Source of the DNA: a virus
Taxonomy: Duplodnaviria > Heunggongvirae > Uroviricota > Caudoviricetes
Virus record (IMG/VR): IMGVR_UViG_2579779007_000007
Direction: 5' to 3' (one strand)
DNA length: 35,575 nucleotides
The position numbers and the translations under genes are program-made. Of the stretch, positions 8,493-21,181 are shown piece by piece. The first letter of the stretch is position 1. Every line of letters starts with the position of its first letter. The notes under the pieces are model-generated. The model saw only the letters and a program-made list of their open reading frames with translations, was not told the origin of the DNA and searched no databases.

Positions 8493-10400
8493 ATGAAACT
8501 GATTTCTAATAAGGCAAAATTAAAAAAGATTCTCAGAAATGCAGCCAAATATATTACGCCACCGCCTAAACTCCTTCCATCGGAATGGTGCGAAGCGAAT
8601 CTAACGCTAGTCGATGGTCCTCGTGCTGGGGATAAAGTTAAATTGCTGTCATTTCAGAAAGGCATGATTGATGCTCCTTTCCTTGAGAAGAAAAAGAAGT
8701 ACGTTTTTTGTACGAGTGCGCAGATCGGAAAGACGACCATCATGTCAGGGATCATGTTTAACCAGATGGCAAACGATCCGTGTAATATCATTATCGGGCA
8801 AAGTACCGCTAAAGAAGTGGCTATGTACTTGAATACTAAGATCCGTCCTTCTATTGAAGCATGTCCGGCATTACAGGAAGTGGTAACAGATAAGAATGAT
8901 CGTAATGCGGTAAACAACAATAACCAGATTCAGCTAAAAACAAACCATTTCCTTTACATGGTTTCTTTGACCAGTCCTTCAAGTTTGCGCGGGCGTACTG
9001 CCAAGTTAGGGATTGTAGACGAATGCGACGCAGCAACAATCACCGAAGAAGGTTGCCCGGTGGCACTAACTGCAAACCGTTTAACTACCTTTGGTGATGA
9101 AGCTCGATTGATTGTTTCTAGTACCCCGACCAATAAGCTGGGAATCATTAACCAGCAATGGTTATCAAGTGATATGCGTATGTTTTTTGTTCCGTGTCCT
9201 CATTGCGGGGAACACCAGGTGATCGAGTGGGAAAACGTTCAATTTGAATGGCGTAACATTGATGGTAAGAACTTACCCGATCCTGATACCGCTCGTTATA
9301 TTTGCCCCCACTGTAAGAACGCATGGACAGAAGGGGAACGAATCAGGGCAGTAGCGCAAGGCGAGTGGAGAGCAACCCGTGAAAGTGAAGTAGCAGGATT
9401 CTGGATCAGTCGTCTGTATTCACCTTTCAGCACGATCCGCGCTTGTGTGGTTGATTTTAGTCATGCGTGGCAATCCTTTGATTTACAATCCTTTTTTAAC
9501 ACCGTGTTAGGCAAGGTATACGACGATCAGGACACGGCAGTAGAAGCAAATGAACTGGAACAACTCAAAACAGATGTTTCTATCGAGAATATCCCTGATG
9601 ACGTGATTTTCTTGTGTGCGGGTACTGACCAGCAATTAGATCGCGCAGAAACTACGATCATGGGCGTGGCAAAGGATAAGATTTATATTCTGGATCACCG
9701 CAGCTTTTACGATCATAACTGTGAACGATATGAATCACCTGTATGGGATAGATTAATCAACTTCCATAAAACCAAATTTACTACTGTATCGGGTGATCGT
9801 GTTCCTATGCTCGCCAGCTTCCTTGATACATCGAACGGTCGATTCACTCAAGCTGGATACCGTATTTGCGGCAAGTGGAAGAACTTACACGCTATCAAAG
9901 GTAGTTCTGCTGGTAACGCTCCGATCATTCCGGTTAAACCTACCCGCACAGGTGGTCATGAATTGCTTATGCTGGGCGTTAACGTTGGGAAATCCGCTGT
10001 TCGTGAAATGCTGGTTAGAAACCTGAAAGATAATCCTCATATTGGCTTAGAAATATCAGAAACCATTCCTGATGATTATCTCGATCAGCTTTTGAGTGAA
10101 TCCATCAAGCGTACTACTACTGGCGTGCGTTGGGTGAAAAATCCAGGTAGTACCCGAAACGAGGCTCTCGACTGTCTGGTTTATAGCTATGCTGCTTCTC
10201 GCTACGTTCTTTCAAAAATGTCATGGGATAAACTCATTGCAATGAAAGACAGCTTAAACCGTGTTGTCGAAGAATCCGTAGAAGCTCCTAAATCGCAATC
10301 TGACGAGCAAATCGAAGAAAATAAGCCAATCACACGACCACAACGTAAAAACATCGCCAGACGCCCAAATAGAGGCCGTAGCTGGGTAACATCGTTCTAA
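8493..10400 (+). CDS. terL: terminase large subunit, lambda gpA family
   Basis: 635 aa. Recalled gpA-family blocks: [45 protein letters not shown]. Confidence 0.9.
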
Positions 10401-10977: not shown

Positions 10978-12489
10978 ATGTTTAATCTTTTTCGACGCAA
11001 AAAGGCGGTAGAAACTCCAGTTAAAACTAATCACCGCCAACAACAACCAAAAATTTTCATCGACAAACAAGTAGAAAAATTTCAGAAAGATTTGTCTAAG
11101 CGTTCTTTGGGCTTAGTCGGTGATCGAATTGATGGGCAGCTTCAACAAGATACTATCACCGGAACGTTCAATAAGGCTCTCAAATCGAACGGTAAGCGCC
11201 TTTATGATCAGGGTCGTACTCTGGCCTTAAACACTTCCGTAGGCAGTCGATACACGCAATACATCACCGATATGGTGGTAGGTACTGGCCTAGATCCGAA
11301 GCCGTCAATCGTTAAATCAAATGGCAAACTTGATAGCGCACTGAATAAGCAGATCGAGAATGCTTTCTGGAAGTGGGCGCAGAATGCTAAACGCTTCTCT
11401 CGTAACGGTCGCTTTAACTTCCGTGAATTGCTGGTAATGGCTGAACGTGAGCGCGTTATGGGTGGTGAGTGTTTCATCGTTTTAACTAAAGAAAACAATG
11501 AGTTAAATGTTTCTATCCTGTCTGCTGATAAGTGCGACTGGACTCTCAACCGTGAAGTGAGCAAAGAACGTGCGATATATCAAGGTGTGGAGTATGCCGT
11601 AGAAACGATGAAGCCCGTGGCATACTGGTTTCGTAAAGTCAACCTACTGACTCAGACCTACACTGGTGATAACTATCGCGTCGATGCTTCGCAAGTATGC
11701 CATTATTATCAACCGCTTACCGCCGAATCCCTGCGTGGTGTGACTGACTTCCTGCCAGTGATTAAGGATATCGCACATCAAGATGCATTCCGCGAAACTG
11801 CGATCATCCAGAAACGCATTGCAGCTAGCTCTATGGGCTTTATCGAACGTCCGAAAGATTCTGGTGACGATTTTGATACTGGTGAAGAGGATGAACAATA
11901 TCAAGCGCCGGAAGTAGTACAGGACTTTGCACCGGGTACTATTCAGGAATTGCCGGAAGGGGCAACGATTAAGTCAATTCAGAGCGCCCAAAGTGGCGAT
12001 GACTTTAACAGCTTCAATGATGCGATGTTTACTAGCGTATCAATGGGCTTAGGCGTGTTTAAACAGGGCTTAACTGGTGATACCAGCCAGATCAACTACA
12101 GCGCAGCCCGCTACGGCGAATTGCTTCAACGCACACGAGTTAAAGCACTGCAAAACAAATTAATTGAAACAGTGGTATTGCCAATTTTTGAAGCATATCT
12201 ACGCCATTATTCCGCGCGTGGTATTGTTCCGATTCGTATTACTGCAATTCCGCATATTATCGACAACACTACTATTATTCGTCCGCGTTTTGAATCCGTC
12301 GATCCTATTAAAGACGTAAACGCTGATATTGCTTTAATTGATAAAGGACTTAAATCACGTACTGCCGTTATATTAGAACGTGGTGATGATCCTGAAAAAG
12401 TATTCTCAGAGATTCAAGCCGAAAAGAGCGCACTAAATATTATCGTTGATGGTGAGGGTGAAGAAAAAAATTCCCCAGCCGATCCCTAA
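10978..12489 (+). CDS. portal protein (lambda gpB-like)
   Basis: 503 aa, position after terminase, C-terminal block resembling lambda-type portals. Confidence 0.8.
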   Translation: MFNLFRRKKAVETPVKTNHRQQQPKIFIDKQVEKFQKDLSKRSLGLVGDRIDGQLQQDTITGTFNKALKSNGKRLYDQGRTLALNTSVGSRYTQYITDMVVGTGLDPKPSIVKSNGKLDSALNKQIENAFWKWAQNAKRFSRNGRFNFRELLVMAERERVMGGECFIVLTKENNELNVSILSADKCDWTLNREVSKERAIYQGVEYAVETMKPVAYWFRKVNLLTQTYTGDNYRVDASQVCHYYQPLTAESLRGVTDFLPVIKDIAHQDAFRETAIIQKRIAASSMGFIERPKDSGDDFDTGEEDEQYQAPEVVQDFAPGTIQELPEGATIKSIQSAQSGDDFNSFNDAMFTSVSMGLGVFKQGLTGDTSQINYSAARYGELLQRTRVKALQNKLIETVVLPIFEAYLRHYSARGIVPIRITAIPHIIDNTTIIRPRFESVDPIKDVNADIALIDKGLKSRTAVILERGDDPEKVFSEIQAEKSALNIIVDGEGEEKNSPADP

Positions 12490-12534
12490 TAACCAACGGG
12501 GGCGCAATGCCCCCAATTAATTAAAGGTGATTAA

Positions 12535-14547
12535 ATGCTTAAATTTCGCCGCGATCTTAACGGTTACGGTGGAGTTATTAATGAAGGGCATAACGATCAA
12601 TACGAATTTGAAATTGCTTTCTCAAGTACACAGCCTTATCAGCGCCAATTTTGGGATGAGCAAAATCAAGAAATGGTGGTATTAGATGAAATTCTGGTAC
12701 ATACACCGGAAGCGGTTGATCTGTCTCGTCTGAATAATAACGCTCCGTTGCTGTTCAATCACAATTTCGATAATCACATTGGTGTAGTTTGTAACGCTCG
12801 AATCGATGCGGATAACGTAGGTCGTGCTCTGGTTAAGTTCTCCAAGCATGGGACTTTGGCTAATGATATTCGTAATAAAGTCATTGAAGGTACGATGGAA
12901 AAAATTTCGGTCGGCTATGACATTAAAGAATATCACATCGACTACACCAAAGGACAATTGATTGTTACTAAGTGGGCACCCTATGAACTCTCATTTGTCA
13001 CCGTTCCCGCAGACGATACGGTCGGTTTAAATCGCTCTCTAAATACTATCACAGTTAATTTGGAGGCTAAACGCGATATGACTAAAGAACAAATCGAAGA
13101 AATCAAAGAAGAACAAGAACCCGCTCAGGTTGAAGAAACTCCGGTAGAAGAAAATAAAGAACCGGAAGTTGAAGAAACTCAAGAGCGCCAAGTTGAAGAG
13201 AATAAAGAAGATGAAAATCTCGAAGACGGAAAAGACGCTGAACATCCTGAAAGTGTTGATGATGATAGTTCAACTGTTCGGGAAACAGAAGAAGTAAAAG
13301 AAGAACGTGAAGCTGCTCCGGTTGAAGAAGAAAAAACCGAGGAAGTGGCTGAACGTTCCGAAGAAGACGAATTAGAAATTCGCGAAATTGCACGCGAGTT
13401 AAATATTAACGAAGACGATGAAGAATTTAAACGCGCATTGGCAAATAAAGAAATTACGCCGGAAGCATTCCGCACTAAGGCACTAAATAACATTACCAAT
13501 GCTCAACGTAATAACGAACAAATTAATAAGGAACAAATCATGGAAAAAACTTTCGATCTTAATAACGTAATCCGCTCCCTGGTAGATGGCGACGTGCTCG
13601 GCGCTAACGAAGCTGAATATTCCGCAATGGCTGCTACTGCAACTATGCAGCGTGGTCGTGCTGCTCGTGGTGGCTCTGTATTCGTTCCGGCTGCTGCTAT
13701 GCGTGCTGCTGCTGATGGCAACACCAAAGCTAATCTGGTTGCTATCACTGACGAAAAACTGATGACTGAATCCTACATCGAAATGCTGATGCCTCAGAGT
13801 GTTTTAGGCCGCCTCGGGGTGACTGTTTATAGTGGCTTGACTTCTCCGACCGCTATTCCAAAAATGACTAAATCCAGCGTTGACGCTTTCGGATTCGTAG
13901 ATGAAAATGGCGCTGCCCCCGAGTCACATGCGGAATTTTCGAACGTGAAACTGTCTCCGAAAACTTTTGCTGGTGGCAACCCGATCAGCCGTCAGTCGCT
14001 GAAAACCGTTCCGGGCATCGCTACCCTGATCACCGATCACATTAACAAATCTGTTCGGATCAAACTGGAACAACTGATTCTGTCTGATAAAGAAAATGCT
14101 CGTGGTCCGGCTGGTCTGGTTAAGCAACTGGTAGACGCTAGCCGCGTTACCAAGAAAGCTGCTTTCTCTTATAAAGATTTCCTCAAGGAGATTGCTCAGC
14201 TTACGGACGCTGGCGTTCCTGCTCAGGCGATCAAGTTTGCGATGAGCGGTGCAACTGCTGCTGAACTGGAATCTACCCTGAAAGATAACGGCGTTTCCGG
14301 TTATATCATCGAAAACGGCAAACTGGCTGGTTACGAAGTAGTTACTTCTGGCGTTATTCCGGCAGATCACATCGTTCTGGGTGACTTCTCCGGTATTACC
14401 ATCGGTGAGTGGGGCGGTCTGGAACTTGACATGGATCTAACTACATATCGGGATCGTGGGGCGGTAGTGCCTAGAATCTTTGTAGATTTGGACTACGTTG
14501 TAGCACAGCCGGAAGCGCTGAAAGTTCTTCACATCTCCGCTGACTGA
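12535..14547 (+). CDS. fused prohead protease (HK97/S78-like) - acidic scaffold-like linker - HK97-fold major capsid protein
   Basis: 670 aa. Residues 1-170 match the S78 prohead protease pattern, residues about 180-330 are E-rich, the C-terminal 340 aa are HK97-MCP-like. Ends with TGA. Confidence 0.8.
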   Translation: MLKFRRDLNGYGGVINEGHNDQYEFEIAFSSTQPYQRQFWDEQNQEMVVLDEILVHTPEAVDLSRLNNNAPLLFNHNFDNHIGVVCNARIDADNVGRALVKFSKHGTLANDIRNKVIEGTMEKISVGYDIKEYHIDYTKGQLIVTKWAPYELSFVTVPADDTVGLNRSLNTITVNLEAKRDMTKEQIEEIKEEQEPAQVEETPVEENKEPEVEETQERQVEENKEDENLEDGKDAEHPESVDDDSSTVRETEEVKEEREAAPVEEEKTEEVAERSEEDELEIREIARELNINEDDEEFKRALANKEITPEAFRTKALNNITNAQRNNEQINKEQIMEKTFDLNNVIRSLVDGDVLGANEAEYSAMAATATMQRGRAARGGSVFVPAAAMRAAADGNTKANLVAITDEKLMTESYIEMLMPQSVLGRLGVTVYSGLTSPTAIPKMTKSSVDAFGFVDENGAAPESHAEFSNVKLSPKTFAGGNPISRQSLKTVPGIATLITDHINKSVRIKLEQLILSDKENARGPAGLVKQLVDASRVTKKAAFSYKDFLKEIAQLTDAGVPAQAIKFAMSGATAAELESTLKDNGVSGYIIENGKLAGYEVVTSGVIPADHIVLGDFSGITIGEWGGLELDMDLTTYRDRGAVVPRIFVDLDYVVAQPEALKVLHISAD

Positions 14548-14676
14548 ACTAGCGTAGAACCTTCTGAACCTTCCCCCGATTTGGGGGAAGAAAATCTGAT
14601 TCCATCTCAGGAAGAAGAAGTTCAAGAGGTTACGGCGAAAGCCACAGTTAAAAAACAACGTAAAACTAAAGAATAA
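14548..14676 (+). other. in-frame 42-codon extension after the capsid TGA (candidate readthrough segment)
   Basis: Same frame as 12535..14547, no ATG. Encodes TSVEPSEPSPDLGEENLIPSQEEEVQEVTAKATVKKQRKTKE, then TAA. Confidence 0.45.
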
Positions 14677-14681
14677 TAATT

Positions 14682-14710
14682 AGCCCTGCCTTAACGGTGG
14701 GGCTTTTTTG
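14682..14710 (+). terminator. intrinsic terminator after the capsid extension
   Basis: AGCCCTGCC-ttaac-GGTGGGGCT followed by TTTTTT. Near-identical copy at 20632..20660. Confidence 0.7.
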
Positions 14711-15448: not shown

Positions 15449-16282
15449 ATGAATATTACACAAGATAACTTAGATATTTTCACTGGATCACATGTTGAAG
15501 TGTCGATCTCTAACCAGATAGACAATCAGGTCGACTTTTTCGATCCTAGCTTTAGTTCTATGGAGAACATCGCAGCATTCCCTACGCTAACCGAATCCAC
15601 AGAGATAGAAACTCTGGAAGAGTACGATCAGGACGCTACGGGGAAACTTGCTGGTTATCGTAGACTGGAACCGACAACACTCACATTAAACCGTGTTCTT
15701 GACGATGAACATCAAGCAATGTTGATGAAAGCGGTAGAGGATAAAACACCTTTACGCTTCCGTATGTTCTATGTTGTGAACTCTGGCTATAGTGCTGCTA
15801 ACACTGGTTACTATGTCATCTATGACGCTTATGTCACTAGTCACAAAACCCGTGGCGCAGATAACAAAGCTGTAACACTGGAATTTAAACTTGAACCAGA
15901 TGGCGGGATTTTGGCAAGGGGTATAGCGACCGAGGGAAAAATTCTGCGACAAGGGGATTATGGCGTAGGTGCAGGTGTACATCCATTCACGGGTCCAATT
16001 GATAGTGATGCTTTAGCAGGAAACCGTTTCGTAACTTACAAGGGAACTGCTAGCGGTAATCCATACTCAGCCGACACATCATTAATTCACCTTCAAGCTA
16101 ATGAGCATGGCGCATGGCAATTAACCTGTAATACTTCCGGTGCACCACGTTTACGTGTCCGAAATATTCAGGAAAACGGTCGCTCTGAATGGATCAAGGT
16201 ATATTCCACCAATGAGAAACCGACACCTAGCGAAATTGGCGCAGTGGCTAAGACTGACCGGATCGATTTCGGCGAATACTAA
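15449..16282 (+). CDS. tail-tube-like protein with C-terminal fibre-like extension (paralog of the 20030 gene)
   Basis: 277 aa. N-terminus (NLDIFTGSHV...GKL...LTLT) aligns with the 156-aa protein at 20030. C-terminus carries KPTPSEIGA, also present in the tail fibre. Confidence 0.55.
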   Translation: MNITQDNLDIFTGSHVEVSISNQIDNQVDFFDPSFSSMENIAAFPTLTESTEIETLEEYDQDATGKLAGYRRLEPTTLTLNRVLDDEHQAMLMKAVEDKTPLRFRMFYVVNSGYSAANTGYYVIYDAYVTSHKTRGADNKAVTLEFKLEPDGGILARGIATEGKILRQGDYGVGAGVHPFTGPIDSDALAGNRFVTYKGTASGNPYSADTSLIHLQANEHGAWQLTCNTSGAPRLRVRNIQENGRSEWIKVYSTNEKPTPSEIGAVAKTDRIDFGEY

Positions 16283-16364: not shown

Positions 16365-19300
16365 ATGCAATCAATCCAATTTAAACGCACACAAACGGCT
16401 GGTAAAAAGCCGACGCCGGAACAATTATCACAGGGTGAGATCGCCTTACAACTGGCGGACCATGTGATTTACACCAAAGACAAAAATAATAACGTAGTCC
16501 AAATTAGTGTTTCTCCAGAAAAACACGCTGAACTTAACACTAAAGTAGACAATAACAAAACTAGCACTGACCGTGTTATTGCTTCCAACAAACAAGAGGC
16601 CGCTAATAATCTGGCTAGTGCTAAAGCTGAACTGAATCAGACTATTACCACGAAAGATACAGCGACCAATAAGCGCATTGATGCTACCAACACCACTGTT
16701 AGTAACTTAACCCAGACAGTTACGGCAAATAAAACCGATGCCGACACTAAGATCAATAACCTTACGGGGACCGTATCTGCGAATAAGACCGCAATTGAAA
16801 GAACCGTTGCCGCAAACAAATCTGATGCAGATAGCAAACATGCAGCTTTAACGAAAACGGTCACTGACAATAACACCGCGATTAACAACAAGGTTAATAC
16901 CACTAACACCAACGTTAGCAACTTAACTAAAACTGTTACTGCAAATAAAACCGATGCAGATAACAAAATTTCTAGCTTAACTAGCGCGGTTGCAGCTAAC
17001 AAGACAGCGATCGAAAAGACTGTTTCCGACAATAAGAAAGACGCGGATACTAAGATTACCAATCTTACTGGCACTGTTAATAGCAACCATACCGCAATTA
17101 ACAACAAGGTAGACCAGAATAAATCTTCTACTGATGCCGCAATTGCAGCCGCTAACAAACGAATTGATGGTATTGAAGGTAGCAATGATGCTCTTTACAT
17201 CAAGAAGAATACCAATACTAAGCATGGTGGGTATCTGTTAAGCAAGACAGCTAACTATCTGGAAGACCAGACATCACGAGATCTTAACTACTTTGGTGCT
17301 TTCCGTACCAATGGTCAAGATGGACTCATGGATCTAACTCTTAACGTTCCTCACTCTTCCGGTAAAGCGCACGGTCGCGGATTTACTTTCCGTTATGCGT
17401 CTGGTGGATCTCGTGTTGAAACCTATGGTTTTGATAGAGAAGGACAGAAGAACTTTAGCTATAAGATGTATCACGAAGGTGATAAACCGACTCCTGCTGA
17501 AATTGGCGCATATACCAAAGGCGAAATTGATAAGATGTTTATTAAAAATGTCACAATGTCTGTTCCTTCTGGTAGTGAATCCCGTGCTTATTTCAAGATT
17601 GCTACGGCTACGATCCCACAAAATGGTCGTATGGTAATGCTTCGTATCTTCGGTGGTAATGGTTATAACGTTAACTCCTATGATCAGGTTGATTTCCTTG
17701 AAATTGTTATCCGTAGTGGTAACGATAGACCTAAAGGTGTTAGTGTTGCTGCATATCGTCGAAATGCTCTTAACGTTCATCAAGTATTTGCGGTTAATAC
17801 TTCCGGTGATAACTACGACATTTACGTTAACTACGGTCGTTATACTGATAACGTTATTGTCGAATATGGTAAGACTAGCGGTGTTTCACTGACTGTTCAT
17901 GACACCCCAGATATGACTAACGTTAAGCCGTCTACTGGTGTTACAGATGGACGTGTTATTACAATGTTCAATACCGAAAACAAGGCCGGAACGTTGATGT
18001 TTGATAATAACGGTCAGGGAACATATGATATTGTCAGTTTGAATAACGATTCAGGTACTGGTAAAAAATATCTGCGTAAATTCCGTAGTAAAGCCGCAGA
18101 AACAATCTGGCATGAAACTGTTCAAGGTAACGTATATCGTTTAGCGACTGGCACTACCGATTCTAGCGAAGTTCTACGAATCACTGGTCGCACTATGTAT
18201 ACTGGTAAAGCTGTTTTTGATGCCGGATCTAATACTATTCGTATGCAGCGACCGAATGGTCAAAGTAACTATTTGGAATATTGGGATAACCGTAACGGTG
18301 CAAATAAACGTCAAGGTTGGATCGGTTATGGAAATGCCGATACTAACGCTATGCAGATGTATAACGATAGCGGTACTAACAATATTGGCTTAGAACAAAG
18401 CGGTCAAATCTCTCTGAATACTGGATCTACTAAAGTAGTTTATACCAACGGCGAGTATGTATCTGCTAACTCAAATGCATTCCGTATGATTTACGGTAAC
18501 TATGGTGCATTCTGGCGTAATGATGGTCAAAACGTATATTTTCTGTCTACTGCCGAAAATGATAAATTTGGTGGTTGGAACGGCTATCGTCCATTCATTT
18601 ACAATCTGGGTAGCGGTAATGTTACTTTGGGTGGTGATGGTAACGAAGGTGCATTAGTCTTAGAACGTGCAAGTCGTGCAGCTCGTTTTGCTGGAAACGC
18701 TTTCATCAAAGGTCAACATTTAACACTTGATGCTGGTGCTGGACAATCCCGCGACTATTTCCGTTTTAACCATTGGGGTGATAGCAATAACGCTCGCGAC
18801 AACATTCTATATCTCGAAGACAGCAAAGGACGCCATTTCAGCACCGAACGTAATATGGCTACAGGTGCATTAAAAGCATACTTCTTAGGAGATCTTGAAG
18901 TTGCTGGTCAAATGCGATGGGGTAAGAATACCGGACAATCTAGCTTCAATATTCGTGCATGGGGTAATGATACTCGTAAACAAGTATTAGAATGCGCAGA
19001 TGAAAGCGGCTGGCATTTCTACACACAGCGTGCTGGCGGTCCTGATACTACCGCAATCGAGTTTAGCGTAAACGGTAAAATTAACGCTCCCCGACTGTCT
19101 ATTAGTCAGGATGCAACCATTCCTAAGTTTAATAGCGGTTTTGGTGTTGGTGTTGCTAACGGATTGGGTGGAAATTCTATTGTTTTAGGCGATAGTGATA
19201 CTGGATTTAAACAAAACGGTGATGGTGTCCTTGATACCTACGCTAATAACGTTAATGTTGTTCGCCATACGTCAGGCGGTGTTACATTTAACCGTCGTGT

Positions 19301-19973
19301 TGTTGTTGCTAACAAAAATGGTTTAGGTTATTCCGATATCTCTGATGTAACTCGTGACCGTGCTCCATTCCTGGTTAACATGGATAGTATTAAGGGGTCT
19401 GCTGCATATTTCCCGATCATCGCTGGTTACAGTAACTTAGGTGATGTTGGTTATCGTCAGTCCTTCGAGTTTGGTTGGACGGGTAGCGGGTCGAATAGCA
19501 CATGGCGTACTGGTATTATCCGTATGCGTGGCGATAACGCCAACGGGCAGCAAGCACGCTGGGAATTTACTATGGATGGTGATTTTACCTGCCCCCGTAA
19601 CGGTAGCTTTAACGATGTTTACATTCGCTCTGACTCCCGTTTGAAGATTAACAAGGAAGAATTACAGGACGGCGCATTAGAGAAAGTAAACTCCCTGAAA
19701 GTCTACACCTACGATAAAGTTAAATCTCTTTCAGATGACACAGTGGTTAAACGCGAAGTAGGTATTATTGCTCAGGATCTGGAAGAAGTGTTGCCGGAAG
19801 CAGTAGGTATTCAATCCACCGAAGATCCAGAACAACCGGAAGCAATTAAGACTATTTCTAACTCTGCTGTTAATGCCTTGATTATTAAAGCGATTCAGGA
19901 AATGGACGCCAAATATCAAGCTAAGATTGAAGCATTGACTAAAGAGATTGCCGAACTCAAAGCAACTAAATAA
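16365..19973 (+). CDS. long tail fibre with C-terminal S74 intramolecular-chaperone domain
   Basis: 1202 aa. Repetitive shaft, KPTPAEIGAY motif, C-terminal YIRSDSRLKINKEEL... matching the autoproteolytic chaperone domain of T5 pb1 and endosialidase-type fibres. Confidence 0.85.
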   Translation: MQSIQFKRTQTAGKKPTPEQLSQGEIALQLADHVIYTKDKNNNVVQISVSPEKHAELNTKVDNNKTSTDRVIASNKQEAANNLASAKAELNQTITTKDTATNKRIDATNTTVSNLTQTVTANKTDADTKINNLTGTVSANKTAIERTVAANKSDADSKHAALTKTVTDNNTAINNKVNTTNTNVSNLTKTVTANKTDADNKISSLTSAVAANKTAIEKTVSDNKKDADTKITNLTGTVNSNHTAINNKVDQNKSSTDAAIAAANKRIDGIEGSNDALYIKKNTNTKHGGYLLSKTANYLEDQTSRDLNYFGAFRTNGQDGLMDLTLNVPHSSGKAHGRGFTFRYASGGSRVETYGFDREGQKNFSYKMYHEGDKPTPAEIGAYTKGEIDKMFIKNVTMSVPSGSESRAYFKIATATIPQNGRMVMLRIFGGNGYNVNSYDQVDFLEIVIRSGNDRPKGVSVAAYRRNALNVHQVFAVNTSGDNYDIYVNYGRYTDNVIVEYGKTSGVSLTVHDTPDMTNVKPSTGVTDGRVITMFNTENKAGTLMFDNNGQGTYDIVSLNNDSGTGKKYLRKFRSKAAETIWHETVQGNVYRLATGTTDSSEVLRITGRTMYTGKAVFDAGSNTIRMQRPNGQSNYLEYWDNRNGANKRQGWIGYGNADTNAMQMYNDSGTNNIGLEQSGQISLNTGSTKVVYTNGEYVSANSNAFRMIYGNYGAFWRNDGQNVYFLSTAENDKFGGWNGYRPFIYNLGSGNVTLGGDGNEGALVLERASRAARFAGNAFIKGQHLTLDAGAGQSRDYFRFNHWGDSNNARDNILYLEDSKGRHFSTERNMATGALKAYFLGDLEVAGQMRWGKNTGQSSFNIRAWGNDTRKQVLECADESGWHFYTQRAGGPDTTAIEFSVNGKINAPRLSISQDATIPKFNSGFGVGVANGLGGNSIVLGDSDTGFKQNGDGVLDTYANNVNVVRHTSGGVTFNRRVVVANKNGLGYSDISDVTRDRAPFLVNMDSIKGSAAYFPIIAGYSNLGDVGYRQSFEFGWTGSGSNSTWRTGIIRMRGDNANGQQARWEFTMDGDFTCPRNGSFNDVYIRSDSRLKINKEELQDGALEKVNSLKVYTYDKVKSLSDDTVVKREVGIIAQDLEEVLPEAVGIQSTEDPEQPEAIKTISNSAVNALIIKAIQEMDAKYQAKIEALTKEIAELKATK
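16640..17170 (+). repeat. intragenic tandem repeats encoding two ~69-aa shaft repeats
   Basis: Repeated NLT.TVTANKTDAD.KI..LT..V.ANKTAIE.TV. The low-complexity repeats create the spurious antisense ORF 16637..17185. Confidence 0.6.
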
Positions 19974-19980
19974 TAAAAGT

Positions 19981-19999
19981 CGGGGGACTAGTTCCCCCG
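19981..19999 (+). other. stem-loop after the fibre gene (weak terminator candidate)
   Basis: CGGGGGA-ctagt-TCCCCCG with no clean T-run. Confidence 0.3.
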
Positions 20000-20029
20000 T
20001 AATAACAATTTTAATTAAGGGGTAATTCT

Positions 20030-20500
20030 ATGTCTCAATTTAATGATATTTTTACTGGTGGTCTGGTAAGTCTGTTCTATCACGCTGATACCACTAACAC
20101 CGCTCTCGATCACTCCGGTTACGAAGAAATTAAAGAGTGTGCTGGTTTTCCTGAAACTGGTATCGAGCGCGGTACTGTAGAAGTTAAATCCTTCTCTTCT
20201 CAGTATAACCGTAAGCTGGTAGGGAAGCTGAACGTTCCTGATCTGACTCTTACGGTGAATTACATCCCCGGGGAGAGTGTCCATGAGAAGCTCATAAAGG
20301 CTGCCGAAGACGGTACTCGAATTCAGATTAAGATTGAATACTATGTTGATGCAGCAAAACAGACTGGTATTCGCACCGCTTTCAACGGCTTCATTTCTAA
20401 AGTTGCTATGAACGGTGGCGATGAAGAAGTGGTAACTAAAGAGTTTACCTTCGCGGTGGACGGAAAGCCGATCAAACAGGAAATCTTCACTGCCGGATGA
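20030..20500 (+). CDS. major tail tube protein (putative)
   Basis: 156 aa, upstream of the chaperone and tape-measure genes. Paralogous to the N-domain of 15449..16282. Ends with TGA. Confidence 0.6.
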   Translation: MSQFNDIFTGGLVSLFYHADTTNTALDHSGYEEIKECAGFPETGIERGTVEVKSFSSQYNRKLVGKLNVPDLTLTVNYIPGESVHEKLIKAAEDGTRIQIKIEYYVDAAKQTGIRTAFNGFISKVAMNGGDEEVVTKEFTFAVDGKPIKQEIFTAG

Positions 20501-20626
20501 ACTAACGAAGAACTTCCTTTAATAGAACCGGAACCACTACCGGAACATGAAGCGGTGGTGATTCCAGAAGTAGAAGAAGTTACGGCGAAAGCCACAGCAA
20601 AACGAGGCCGCAAGGCTAAGAATTAA
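20501..20626 (+). other. in-frame 41-codon extension after the tail-tube TGA (candidate readthrough segment)
   Basis: Same frame as 20030..20500, no in-frame ATG. Encodes TNEELPLIEPEPLPEHEAVVIPEVEEVTAKATAKRGRKAKN, then TAA. Confidence 0.45.
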
Positions 20627-20631
20627 TTTTA

Positions 20632-20660
20632 AGCCCTGCCTTAATGGTGGGGCTTTTTTA
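20632..20660 (+). terminator. intrinsic terminator after the tail-tube extension
   Basis: AGCCCTGCC-ttaat-GGTGGGGCT followed by TTTTTT. Confidence 0.7.
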
Positions 20661-20674
20661 TTGGAGTAATCAAA

Positions 20675-21181
20675 ATGGCAAATGTCGTTAAAGTTCCTGG
20701 CTGGATCGGGTCATCTGCTGTATCGGTGACGGGTAAGCGATGGATGAAAGAAGCACTAACAGCTTTAAAAGTTCCGGCTCCGCGTAATATGTCGGCAATG
20801 GCTGGTCGTGGTATGGATACGGTTGTAGCTACTGCTGCATGGTCTACTTCATTGGGTAATAACTGGGGGGTAACTGCTTCAAACTATCCTGTTTCCGGTA
20901 TGCAAAGCAAAGGATCTATGGAGAACCCCGAAAACGTGGGCGTAGGGCGTCTGATTGGCGTTATCGTTGGTCAATTCAATGGCGGTACTCCTACTATGGC
21001 TGTATATCTCCAGAACGGTAGAGCGGGGAATATAACCGTTAATTTGGGTGGTGCTACTGTCACTGTTCCTTATAACAGTATGCAAAGTGGTTTTCATTAC
21101 TATTGGTTAAGCAATCCTCCGGCTGCTTTCCTCAATAACATTAAGAAGACTGGCACTAAGCAGACTTTGAAAATCTCTTAA
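20675..21181 (+). CDS. hypothetical tail-associated protein (168 aa)
   Basis: ORF with RBS GGAG, located between tail tube and chaperone genes. Confidence 0.5.
   Translation: MANVVKVPGWIGSSAVSVTGKRWMKEALTALKVPAPRNMSAMAGRGMDTVVATAAWSTSLGNNWGVTASNYPVSGMQSKGSMENPENVGVGRLIGVIVGQFNGGTPTMAVYLQNGRAGNITVNLGGATVTVPYNSMQSGFHYYWLSNPPAAFLNNIKKTGTKQTLKIS

What the first reader, a model, noticed from the sequence alone, without database searches (positions are those of the whole stretch)
14611..14710. The extension tip and terminator form a duplicated ~95-bp module conserved at protein level
14629..14647 and 20579..20597 share an identical 19-nt core GTTACGGCGAAAGCCACAG (VTAKAT). Downstream codons differ mainly synonymously or conservatively (cgt/cgc Arg, aaa/aag Lys twice, K/R, T/A), and the terminators AGCCCTGCC-ttaa(c/t)-GGTGGGGCT are near-identical. 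Synonymous divergence in a coding-like pattern favours selection on the peptide over a purely RNA-level 3-prime UTR element, though recent gene conversion between the copies is an alternative.
Basis: seen in the sequence. Interest (0 to 1): 0.6.

Follow-up and report, generated by a model that had tools for sequence, protein, structure and literature searches.

The report
Leaky-stop tail on capsid and tail-tube genes
In this E. coli prophage, the major capsid gene and the tail-tube gene each end in a leaky TGA stop followed in frame by about 40 codons for a flexible acidic linker with a shared basic tip and a shared terminator, so a few subunits of head and tail probably carry the same extra peptide; this would be stop-codon readthrough in a DNA phage, but it has not been shown experimentally.

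Summary
The 19-nt core occurs exactly twice in the window (0 expected). The two ~100-nt modules are 76/102 identical while their flanks are unrelated. They sit at the two best terminator-like sites of the late operon.

Support for translation comes from 93 copies (E. coli genomes, IMG/VR, metagenomes):
- The stop is always TGA followed by A(C/A)T, and frame 0 stays open for 27-45 codons.
- The other two frames always contain stops (checked on the first 72 copies).
- All linker and tail length classes measured differ by multiples of 3.
- These are the only two TGA stops among 24 plus-strand genes in the window.
- The five relatives that lack the extension end in TAA.

Best reading: programmed UGA readthrough, as for Qβ A1, makes minor long forms of capsid and tube protein carrying a disordered acidic/proline linker and a Lys/Arg-rich tip. 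This parallels the frameshift-made long forms in T7, SPP1 and Listeria phages. No protein evidence exists, and I found no description of it.

The parts
12535..14547 (+). Prohead protease–major capsid protein fusion gene (670 aa), ending in TGA at 14545-14547
   Evidence: Pfam Peptidase_S78 and Phage_capsid; phrog_617 major head protein. PDB 8gta_A major capsid protein, E 3e-25. PGAP annotates the gene as ending at the TGA.
14545..14550 (+). Candidate leaky stop in context TGA ACT
   Evidence: TGA followed by A(C/A)T in all 56 capsid copies examined. One of only two TGA stops among 24 + strand genes.
14548..14673 (+). In-frame extension of the capsid gene, 42 codons: TSVEPSEPSPDLGEENLIPSQEEEVQEVTAKATVKKQRKTKE
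   Evidence: Translation. Frame 0 open in every relative (27-45 codons). TGA-to-core distances 33, 54 and 81 nt, all multiples of 3.
14570..14590 (+). Hairpin inside the linker: CTTCCCCC-GATTT-GGGGGAAG
   Evidence: Fold of 14545-14625: -28.4 kcal/mol, z -3.15. The stem is invariant in all long-linker relatives, so covariation cannot be tested. Role unknown.
14629..14647 (+). 19-nt core, copy 1 (codons V T A K A T + G)
   Evidence: Exact duplicate, 0 expected by chance.
14674..14679 (+). Tandem stops TAA TAA that close the extension, 2 nt before the terminator stem (the extension's own stop, 14674-14676, lies 5 nt before it)
   Evidence: The gap between the extension's stop codon and the terminator stem is 5 nt in 39 of 41 capsid copies.
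14682..14709 (+). Intrinsic terminator after the capsid extension
   Evidence: 9-bp stem with 6 GC pairs, 5-nt loop, T-run. In relatives the stem is kept while the loop varies (TAAC, TTAAC, TAGT, GTTATT).
20030..20500 (+). Tail-tube protein gene (156 aa), ending in TGA at 20498-20500
   Evidence: Pfam Phage_TTP_11/12 and phrog_158. The AlphaFold model of a 90%-identical relative matches the lambda gpV tube domain (7t2e, 8k36).
20498..20503 (+). Candidate leaky stop in context TGA ACT
   Evidence: TGA ACT in all 37 tail-tube copies that carry the module. The four tube genes without the module end in TAA.
20501..20623 (+). In-frame extension of the tail-tube gene, 41 codons: TNEELPLIEPEPLPEHEAVVIPEVEEVTAKATAKRGRKAKN
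   Evidence: Translation. 36-41 codons in relatives. TGA-to-core distances 63, 72 and 78 nt. Predicted disordered, pLDDT 40-45, in the equivalent model.
20530..20565 (+). Hairpin inside the linker: GGAA-C-CACTACCG / CGGTGGTG-A-TTCC
   Evidence: Fold of 20498-20578: -20.0 kcal/mol, z -3.0. No compensatory changes and 8 of 96 cells unpaired among relatives. Absent in the 36-codon variant.
20579..20597 (+). 19-nt core, copy 2
20624..20632 (+). Stops TAA TTT TAA that close the extension
20631..20659 (+). Intrinsic terminator after the tail-tube extension
   Evidence: 10-bp stem with 6 GC pairs, 5-nt loop, T-run; the best-scoring site of the region. The hairpin sequence is the same in all 31 tail-tube copies listed; 3 of them have one T fewer in the T-run.

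Best explanation
Both genes end in a deliberately weak stop, UGA followed by A. Most ribosomes terminate there and make the normal capsid and tail-tube proteins. A small fraction decode the UGA with a near-cognate tRNA (Trp-tRNA in E. coli), continue for 41-42 codons, and stop at tandem UAA codons 2-5 nt before an intrinsic terminator. The long forms carry a disordered tail: an acidic, proline-rich linker, then V-T-A-K-A-T, then a Lys/Arg-rich end. Because the C-terminus of this tube fold points outward, the long forms would co-assemble with the short ones and display the same basic tip on the outside of the tail tube and, by analogy with T7 10B (not tested here), of the capsid, a few copies per virion. 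The tip plus terminator is one 3' cassette that was duplicated between the two most highly expressed structural genes.

Shown here: the sequence anatomy and its conservation. Inferred: that the readthrough product is made, that it is incorporated into virions, that the capsid extension is external, and any role such as weak electrostatic adhesion to anionic surfaces (LPS, capsule, mucus, DNA).
For: 1. Both extensions are in frame with a TGA.
2. In 93 copies (56 capsid, 37 tube) from E. coli genomes, IMG/VR and metagenomes, the stop is always TGA plus A(C/A)T and frame 0 is open for 27-45 codons. Frames +1 and +2 contain stops in all 39 distinct sequences checked.
3. The stop-to-core distances are 33, 54, 81, 63, 72 and 78 nt, and core-to-stop distances are 45, 48, 51 and 54 nt, with the terminator a fixed 5 nt further on. 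Every length difference is a multiple of 3.
4. In the window, 22 of 24 + strand genes end in TAA or TAG, often TAA TAA. Only these two use TGA. Highly expressed genes normally avoid UGA, the leakiest stop (PMC4989110).
5. Relatives without the extension end in TAA: the tube genes of L005, L008 and L036, and both genes of phage DCP80.
6. Four very different tail sequences (KKQRKTKE, KKERKTKAK, KRGRKPKE, KKVGRPPKAK) all stay about 45% Lys/Arg in frame 0 against 20-37% in the other frames. The linkers are about 50% Glu/Asp/Pro in frame 0 against 2-9%.
7. UGA readthrough by Trp-tRNA runs at about 2-4% in E. coli K-12 reporters (PMC10570021).
8. The tube protein models as a lambda gpV-like tube domain, and the extension starts where the gpV tube domain ends and is predicted disordered. 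In gpV an outward-facing Ig-like domain follows at that point (from memory). Most library homologues of the tube domain carry long fibre modules at their C-terminus. The C-termini of T7 10B and lambda V are used for display (PMC6971447).
Against: There is no protein, ribosome-profiling or virion evidence. Residue-level constraint is weak: dN/dS is 0.67 and 0.43 with no third-position excess, and synonymous sites in the extension are more conserved than in the gene bodies. The core shows only replacement variants. An open frame of this length has a chance probability of 0.06-0.27 for any single variant class, and the copies are related, so the counts are not independent. No natural variant with a sense codon in place of the TGA was found. 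The one apparent fusion, P0001, is a gene-calling artefact. Wild E. coli have a more active RF2 than K-12 (from memory), so readthrough may be below 1%. The tube extension is dispensable in some relatives (L005, L008). The external location of the capsid C-terminus rests only on analogy with T7 and P22.
Confidence: 0.65

Rival explanations
1. RNA-only element. The conserved core, A-rich spacer and terminator form a 3'-UTR module, either an mRNA-stabilising end or a 3'-UTR-derived, Hfq-type small RNA whose seed is the 19-nt core. Any translation of it is noise.
For: The core has no synonymous variation, and synonymous divergence in the extension is lower than in the gene bodies. The terminator and the sequence after it are the most conserved part of the region, 94-98%. 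The layout of core, A-rich spacer, GC hairpin and U-tail resembles an sRNA 3' module. The linkers contain strong hairpins, z -2.3 to -4.9.
Against: It does not explain why all 93 copies keep the core and basic tail in frame with the stop across six linker lengths and four tail lengths. It does not explain why the stop is always TGA+A, or why extension-less relatives use TAA. It does not explain why divergent tails keep Lys/Arg, including CGN Arg codons that are not A-rich. There is no Rfam family. The low diversity is regional and not specific to the core. A dual role is not excluded.
Confidence: 0.12
2. The open frame matters but the peptide does not. Ribosomes that read through travel to within 5 nt of the terminator hairpin and interfere with its folding or protect the 3' end. 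The readthrough rate would then tune transcription into downstream genes or the stability of the mRNA.
For: The extension's stop codon sits a fixed 5 nt before the terminator stem in 70 of 72 copies. The frame is kept while residues evolve fast, dN/dS 0.43-0.67. Terminator and extension travel together as one cassette.
Against: A stop codon close to a terminator is the normal layout at the end of any coding region. The compositional pattern (acidic/Pro linker, V-T-A-K-A-T, Lys/Arg tail) is frame-specific and is kept in unrelated sequence variants, which a pure ribosome-traffic role does not need. At 1-4% readthrough the effect on termination would be small.
Confidence: 0.12
3. Vestige or conversion tract. 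An ancestral longer C-terminus was cut off by a nonsense mutation, or a 3' end was copied from one gene to the other. The similarity would reflect recent recombination rather than function.
For: There are clear past exchanges between the two sites. The short capsid linkers start N/T-N-E-E-L-P like the tube linker. GCA AAA CGA GGC CGC AAG is shared by capsid (L002, L004) and tube copies. VTEKST occurs on the capsid in L006 and on the tube in L007. The prophage group is mosaic.
Against: A dead tail would accumulate stops and frame-breaking indels. None is seen in 39 distinct sequences from the first sample or in 21 further metagenome copies. Two different genes both keep TGA. Within 20 genomes the two copies do not homogenise.
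Confidence: 0.06
4. Another decoding route for the TGA: selenocysteine insertion, a suppressor tRNA, or a frameshift or hop.
For: A hairpin lies downstream of the UGA in most variants.
Against: There is no tRNA gene in the window and no Rfam hit, including SECIS families. The hairpins differ in sequence and loop, start 13-29 nt after the UGA, and are missing in one variant. The extension is in the zero frame, so no frameshift is needed.
Confidence: 0.02

Closest known systems
Qβ coat/A1 readthrough protein (ssRNA coliphage)
   Same: An E. coli phage coat gene ends in a leaky UGA. About 5% of ribosomes read through and add a C-terminal extension to a minority of capsid subunits (PMC7026636 Table 1; PMC6971447). 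[quoted passage not shown]
   Different: Qβ is an ssRNA levivirus with an unrelated coat fold. Its extension is a folded 196-aa domain essential for infection. Here the host is a dsDNA tailed prophage, the extension is 41-42 aa and predicted disordered, it is present on two different structural genes, and at least the tube copy is dispensable in some relatives.
Listeria phages PSA, A118 and A500: long and short forms of both capsid (Cps) and tail (Tsh) proteins
   Same: Recoding at the 3' ends of both the major capsid gene and the major tail gene of one siphovirus gives C-terminally extended minor forms (PMC5009743).
   Different: Those phages use +1 or -1 ribosomal frameshifting at slippery proline sites. 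Here the extension is in the zero frame behind a stop. From memory, the Listeria extensions are longer and are not the same peptide on head and tail.
T7/T3 capsid protein 10A/10B and SPP1 tail-tube gp17.1/gp17.1*
   Same: A minor long form of the most abundant structural protein is made by recoding near the gene's end. It is non-essential, lies on the outside, and is usable for display (PMC5009743, PMC6316719, PMC6971447). As in T7, a terminator follows the capsid gene (from memory).
   Different: They use frameshifting, not readthrough. The T3 and SPP1 extensions are Ig-like or FN3 domains, whereas this one is a short charged peptide.
Lambda gpV C-terminal Ig-like domain and other constitutive tail-tube decorations
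   Same: The tube fold is the same, and the extension starts at the position where the gpV tube domain ends. From memory, gpV's outward-facing Ig-like domain follows there.
   Different: The gpV domain is present on every subunit and is folded. Here the extension would be on a small fraction of subunits and unfolded.

Membership tests
Programmed UGA stop-codon readthrough (Qβ A1 type) | An open reading frame continues in the zero frame directly after the stop codon | tested here: met
   for the window; 93 of 93 related copies.
Programmed UGA stop-codon readthrough (Qβ A1 type) | The stop is the leaky codon UGA and is conserved with its 3' context | tested here: met
   TGA + A(C/A)T in all copies, including an invariant T at +6, which is a synonymous site. 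These are the only two TGA stops of 24 genes. Extension-less relatives use TAA. That a 3' A favours readthrough is recalled from Engelberg-Kulka (1981), not tested here.
Programmed UGA stop-codon readthrough (Qβ A1 type) | The extension evolves as coding sequence | tested here: inconclusive
   Frame and length classes are kept in multiples of 3, and the composition is frame-specific. However, dN/dS is 0.43-0.67 with no third-position excess.
Programmed UGA stop-codon readthrough (Qβ A1 type) | The extended protein is made and is present in virions | not testable with these tools
   Needs proteomics, western blots or ribosome profiling.
Frameshift-derived long forms of capsid and tail proteins (PSA/A118/A500, T7 10B, SPP1 gp17.1*) | The extension lies in the +1 or -1 frame and is reached at a slippery site | tested here: not met
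   The extension is in frame 0, and frames +1 and +2 contain stops in all 39 distinct sequences.
Frameshift-derived long forms of capsid and tail proteins (PSA/A118/A500, T7 10B, SPP1 gp17.1*) | The extension is a folded Ig-like or FN3 domain (not true of T7 10B) | tested here: not met
   41-42 aa with no Pfam domain; pLDDT 40-45 and no secondary structure.
Intrinsic (Rho-independent) terminator | A GC-rich hairpin immediately followed by a T-run, kept in relatives | tested here: met
   The top two sites of the scan. Among relatives the stem is kept while the loop varies. Termination activity itself was not tested.
AT-hook DNA-binding motif | A G-R-P core flanked by basic residues, scoring above the Pfam threshold | tested here: not met
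   The two window peptides give no hit. Only the KKVGRPPKAK flavour of relatives scores 13-14 bits against a cut-off of 17.4.
3'-UTR-derived small RNA | A conserved seed plus terminator whose conservation is independent of the upstream reading frame | tested here: not met
   The frame relation to the stop is kept in all copies. There is no Rfam family. Whether a discrete RNA exists was not testable.
Bacterial selenocysteine insertion (SECIS) | A conserved hairpin with a defined loop at a fixed short distance after the UGA | tested here: not met
   There are three unrelated hairpins at 13-29 nt, and one variant has none. No Rfam hit.

The most novel reading that the evidence does not exclude
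A tailed dsDNA phage uses programmed UGA readthrough, so far a hallmark of RNA viruses and Qβ, on both its capsid and its tail-tube gene to display one shared flexible cationic peptide on head and tail. The dose per virion would be set by the host's tRNA-Trp/RF2 balance, so the cell's physiological state would be written into the surface of the progeny. The hairpins embedded in the linkers would tune this.
Probability: 0.4. Interest if true: 0.75.

Novelty: new variant of a known kind. Interest (0 to 1): 0.62.

Why it matters
Recoding that gives long and short forms of phage capsid and tail proteins is known only as frameshifting. Reviews list readthrough in bacteria as Qβ plus isolated cases. 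A conserved, annotation-invisible UGA-readthrough cassette on the two most abundant virion proteins of a widespread E. coli prophage group would do three things:
- It would add a new recoding route to tailed-phage biology.
- It would show that gene callers systematically miss such C-terminal isoforms; PGAP leaves about 130 nt 'intergenic' here.
- It would give a simple natural system for studying how UGA leakiness, which varies with temperature, cAMP and RF2 allele, changes virion surfaces.

It is directly testable with one inducible lysogen. If the peptide proves irrelevant, the cassette still illustrates how a 3' end (tip plus terminator) moves as a unit between highly expressed phage genes.

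Tried and rejected
1. My first protein search used a query whose first ~77 residues I mistyped; they are not from the window, and only the C-terminal ~125 residues were real. Its one interesting hit, P0001, looked like a natural Trp fusion of tube and extension. The DNA has TGA, so it is a gene-caller artefact.
2. A second search with the true capsid C-terminus plus extension found no fused protein.
3. Megablast, blastn and tblastn against 50,697 phage records found no close relative and no copy of the module. The nearest isolate, DCP80 (40-46% identity), has TAA stops and no extension.
4. The genome-contig scan with the capsid protein found nothing. The exact 19-mer gave only two chance hits in Bacteroidota.
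5. Rfam gave no family and there is no tRNA in the window.
6. The AT-hook idea is sub-threshold, and only in a flavour that is absent from the window.
7. I considered the linker hairpins as readthrough stimulators. They are thermodynamically notable but have no covariation, start far from the stop, and are absent in one variant. I left them unexplained.
8. I looked for within-genome homogenisation by gene conversion and did not see it in 20 genomes.
9. A scan for sRNA-target complementarity returned only trivial self-matches and was dropped.
11. Engelberg-Kulka (1981) could not be read.
12. Six literature searches found no report of readthrough in tailed-phage capsid or tail genes.

Full report
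WHAT THE WINDOW IS. The window is 100% identical to a prophage of E. coli CE0007a (NZ_CP119011.1). Its + strand carries a lambda-like late operon:
- gpA-type large terminase, 8493-10400
- lambda-family portal, 10978-12489
- a 670-aa prohead-protease/HK97-type major capsid fusion, 12535-14547
- two small head-tail genes
- a 277-aa protein with a tail-tube-like N-domain, 15449-16282
- a 1202-aa T4-like long fibre, 16365-19973
- a 156-aa lambda-gpV-like tail-tube protein, 20030-20500
- a gp38-like adhesin
- tail chaperones, a tape-measure protein and tip proteins

About 55 complete E. coli genomes carry relatives at 80-100% identity. No sequenced isolated phage does.

THE OBSERVATION. The 19-mer GTTACGGCGAAAGCCACAG is present exactly twice, at 14629-14647 and 20579-20597. 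There is no further match at up to 3 mismatches, and shuffles gave none. Each copy is followed about 35 nt later by a nearly identical hairpin plus T-run. These are the two best terminator-like sites between 8 and 27 kb. Over about 100 nt the two modules are 76/102 identical, while the DNA before each stop and after each terminator is unrelated.

THE POINT THE FINDING DOES NOT STATE. Each module is the end of an open frame that continues in frame 0 straight through a TGA stop. The capsid gene reads ...HISAD-TGA-TSVEPSEPSPDLGEENLIPSQEEEVQEVTAKATVKKQRKTKE-TAA-TAA. The tube gene reads ...IFTAG-TGA-TNEELPLIEPEPLPEHEAVVIPEVEEVTAKATAKRGRKAKN-TAA. Both have the context TGAACTA. PGAP ends both genes at the TGA and leaves the rest as intergenic.

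COMPARATIVE EVIDENCE. I collected 8 E. coli prophage loci, 58 IMG/VR loci and 27 metagenome loci found with the core 19-mer. Of the metagenome hits, 21 are true copies and 8 are chance hits in unrelated genes. The total is 56 capsid and 37 tube copies. In the first 72 copies there are 23 and 16 distinct extension sequences.

In every copy:
- The stop is TGA followed by A(C/A)T.
- Frame 0 is open for 27-45 codons (capsid) or 36-41 codons (tube).
- The module follows only these two genes, never any other.

In the 39 distinct sequences of the first 72 copies, frames +1 and +2 always contain stops.

The distance from the stop to the core takes six values (33, 54, 81; 63, 72, 78 nt). The distance from the core to the closing stop takes four values (45, 48, 51, 54 nt). 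The terminator lies a fixed 5 nt further on. Every length difference is a multiple of three.

In the window, 22 of 24 + strand genes end in TAA or TAG, seven of them with TAA TAA. The only two TGA stops are these two.

The five related genes that lack an extension all end in TAA. They are the tube genes of L005, L008 and L036, and both genes of phage DCP80.

No database protein has a sense codon at the stop position. The one apparent fusion was a metagenome gene call that read TGA as Trp.

HOW CODING-LIKE THE SUBSTITUTIONS ARE. They are only weakly coding-like.
- Nei-Gojobori dN/dS is 0.67 (capsid extension) and 0.43 (tube extension). The preceding 100 codons give 0.33 and 0.09.
- Variable sites are spread evenly over the three codon positions.
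- Synonymous divergence is lower in the extension than in the gene bodies.
- The 18-nt core varies only by replacements (T>K, T>M, A>E, A>V, A>S, T>P) and never synonymously. With six variant kinds this is not significant.
- The whole stretch from the tip through the terminator and the next gene's start is a low-diversity block, 94-98% identity, next to a hypervariable linker. The low synonymous divergence is therefore regional.

What is conserved is composition. The linker is about 50% Glu/Asp/Pro and the last ten residues are about 45% Lys/Arg in frame 0, far more than in the other frames. This holds across four unrelated tail sequences: KKQRKTKE, KKERKTKAK, KRGRKPKE and KKVGRPPKAK. That is the signature expected of a disordered, charge-patterned peptide.

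GENE CONVERSION. The two sites have exchanged pieces in the past. The short capsid linkers begin like the tube linker. One capsid tail flavour is nucleotide-identical to the tube flavour. A rare VTEKST variant occurs at either site. In 20 genomes that hold both copies, however, each site keeps its own lineage of variants. The identity of the core in this window therefore reflects retention, not recent homogenisation.

MECHANISM (INFERRED). UGA is the leakiest bacterial stop, and highly expressed genes avoid it (PMC4989110). In E. coli K-12 reporters it is read by Trp-tRNA at about 2% (37 °C) to 4% (25 °C), modulated by cAMP, tRNA-Trp and RF2/RF3 (PMC10570021). From memory, Engelberg-Kulka (1981) linked an A after the UGA, as in the Qβ coat gene, to such suppression; I could not open that paper. 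Assuming a T=7 head (about 415 subunits) and about 30 tube hexamers (810-aa tape measure), 1-3% readthrough would put a handful of long subunits on each head and tail. That estimate is my inference.

LOCATION OF THE EXTENSION.
- An AlphaFold model of a 90%-identical tube-plus-extension sequence folds as a tube domain. Its best PDB matches are lambda gpV (7t2e, 8k36, 8iyd).
- The extension has no structure (pLDDT 40-45) and starts where the gpV tube domain ends. From memory, gpV's outward-facing Ig-like domain follows at that point.
- Most library homologues of this tube domain are N-terminal anchors of 750-1560-aa fibre-like proteins. The C-terminus therefore points outward.
- For the capsid protein (related to PDB 8gta) an external C-terminus is only an analogy with T7 10B display (PMC6971447).
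- A role in weak electrostatic adhesion is a guess. The AT-hook resemblance is sub-threshold and absent from the window's own peptides.

RNA FEATURES. Rfam finds nothing. Three unrelated linker classes each contain a strong hairpin 13-29 nt after the UGA, with z from -2.3 to -4.9. There is no compensatory covariation, one stem is invariant, and the 36-codon tube variant lacks a hairpin. I cannot assign these hairpins a role. An RNA-only reading, or a reading in which only ribosome traffic up to the terminator matters, remains possible. Neither explains the frame-specific composition together with the exclusive use of TGA+A.

COMPARISON WITH KNOWN SYSTEMS. In outcome it works like the long and short capsid and tail proteins of Listeria phages PSA/A118/A500, T7/T3 10A/10B and SPP1 gp17.1* (PMC5009743, PMC6316719). 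Those use frameshifting, a defining feature that was tested here and not met. In decoding it works like Qβ A1 (PMC7026636), but in a dsDNA tailed prophage, on two genes, and with a short unfolded peptide. Six literature searches found no description of readthrough in tailed-phage capsid or tail genes. The searched library excludes most subscription journals, so this absence is not proof.

VERDICT. The duplicated module is real. It is best read as a shared 3' cassette, consisting of a basic peptide tip, tandem stops and a terminator, at the end of UGA-readthrough extensions of the capsid and tail-tube genes. I rate it a new variant of a known kind. My confidence in the readthrough reading is about 0.65 and interest is about 0.6. 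It awaits a simple proteomic test.

Noticed in passing
window 15449-16282; proteins P0021-P0148: A 277-aa protein with a tail-tube-like N-domain sits just before the 1202-aa fibre gene. Most library homologues of the 156-aa tube protein are ~140-aa tube-like N-domains of 750-1560-aa proteins; of four long ones checked against Pfam, three end in fibre modules (Peptidase_S74, Phage_tail_C_2). These look like fibres anchored to the tail by a tube-like ring domain.
   Followed up: partly
window 16365-21181; L005, L008: The tube gene is sandwiched between a T4-like long fibre and a gp38-like adhesin in a lambda-like siphovirus prophage. In L005 and L008 the adhesin-type genes come before a tube gene that ends in TAA and lacks the module.
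   Followed up: partly
window 14570-14590 and 20530-20565; relatives L003, L043: Three unrelated linker classes each contain a strong hairpin 13-29 nt after the UGA (z -2.3 to -4.9), without covariation support and absent in one variant. Their role is unknown.
   Followed up: yes
L011 (PQ671644.1, positions 1-22000): 'Escherichia phage DCP80' is filed as a 141-kb Straboviridae genome, yet it starts with a lambda-like terminase/portal/protease-capsid/tube module 40-46% identical to this prophage. It may be a chimeric assembly.
   Followed up: no
L010 / P0001: A metagenome gene call translated the tube gene's TGA as Trp, apparently using a code-4 model on a short contig, and so produced a spurious 198-aa fusion protein in the protein database.
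   Followed up: yes
L006 8811-10055: A GIY-YIG nuclease gene is inserted between the 277-aa gene and the fibre gene in one relative. It is probably a homing endonuclease.
   Followed up: no
window, + strand gene ends: There is a strong preference for TAA: 21 of 24 genes, plus one TAG. Seven genes have an immediate second TAA.
   Followed up: partly
window 12497-12515 and 19981-19999: GC-rich 7-bp hairpins lie at the portal/capsid and fibre/tube junctions. The scan flagged them on the - strand; on the + strand they lack a T-run. They may be processing or stability elements.
   Followed up: no
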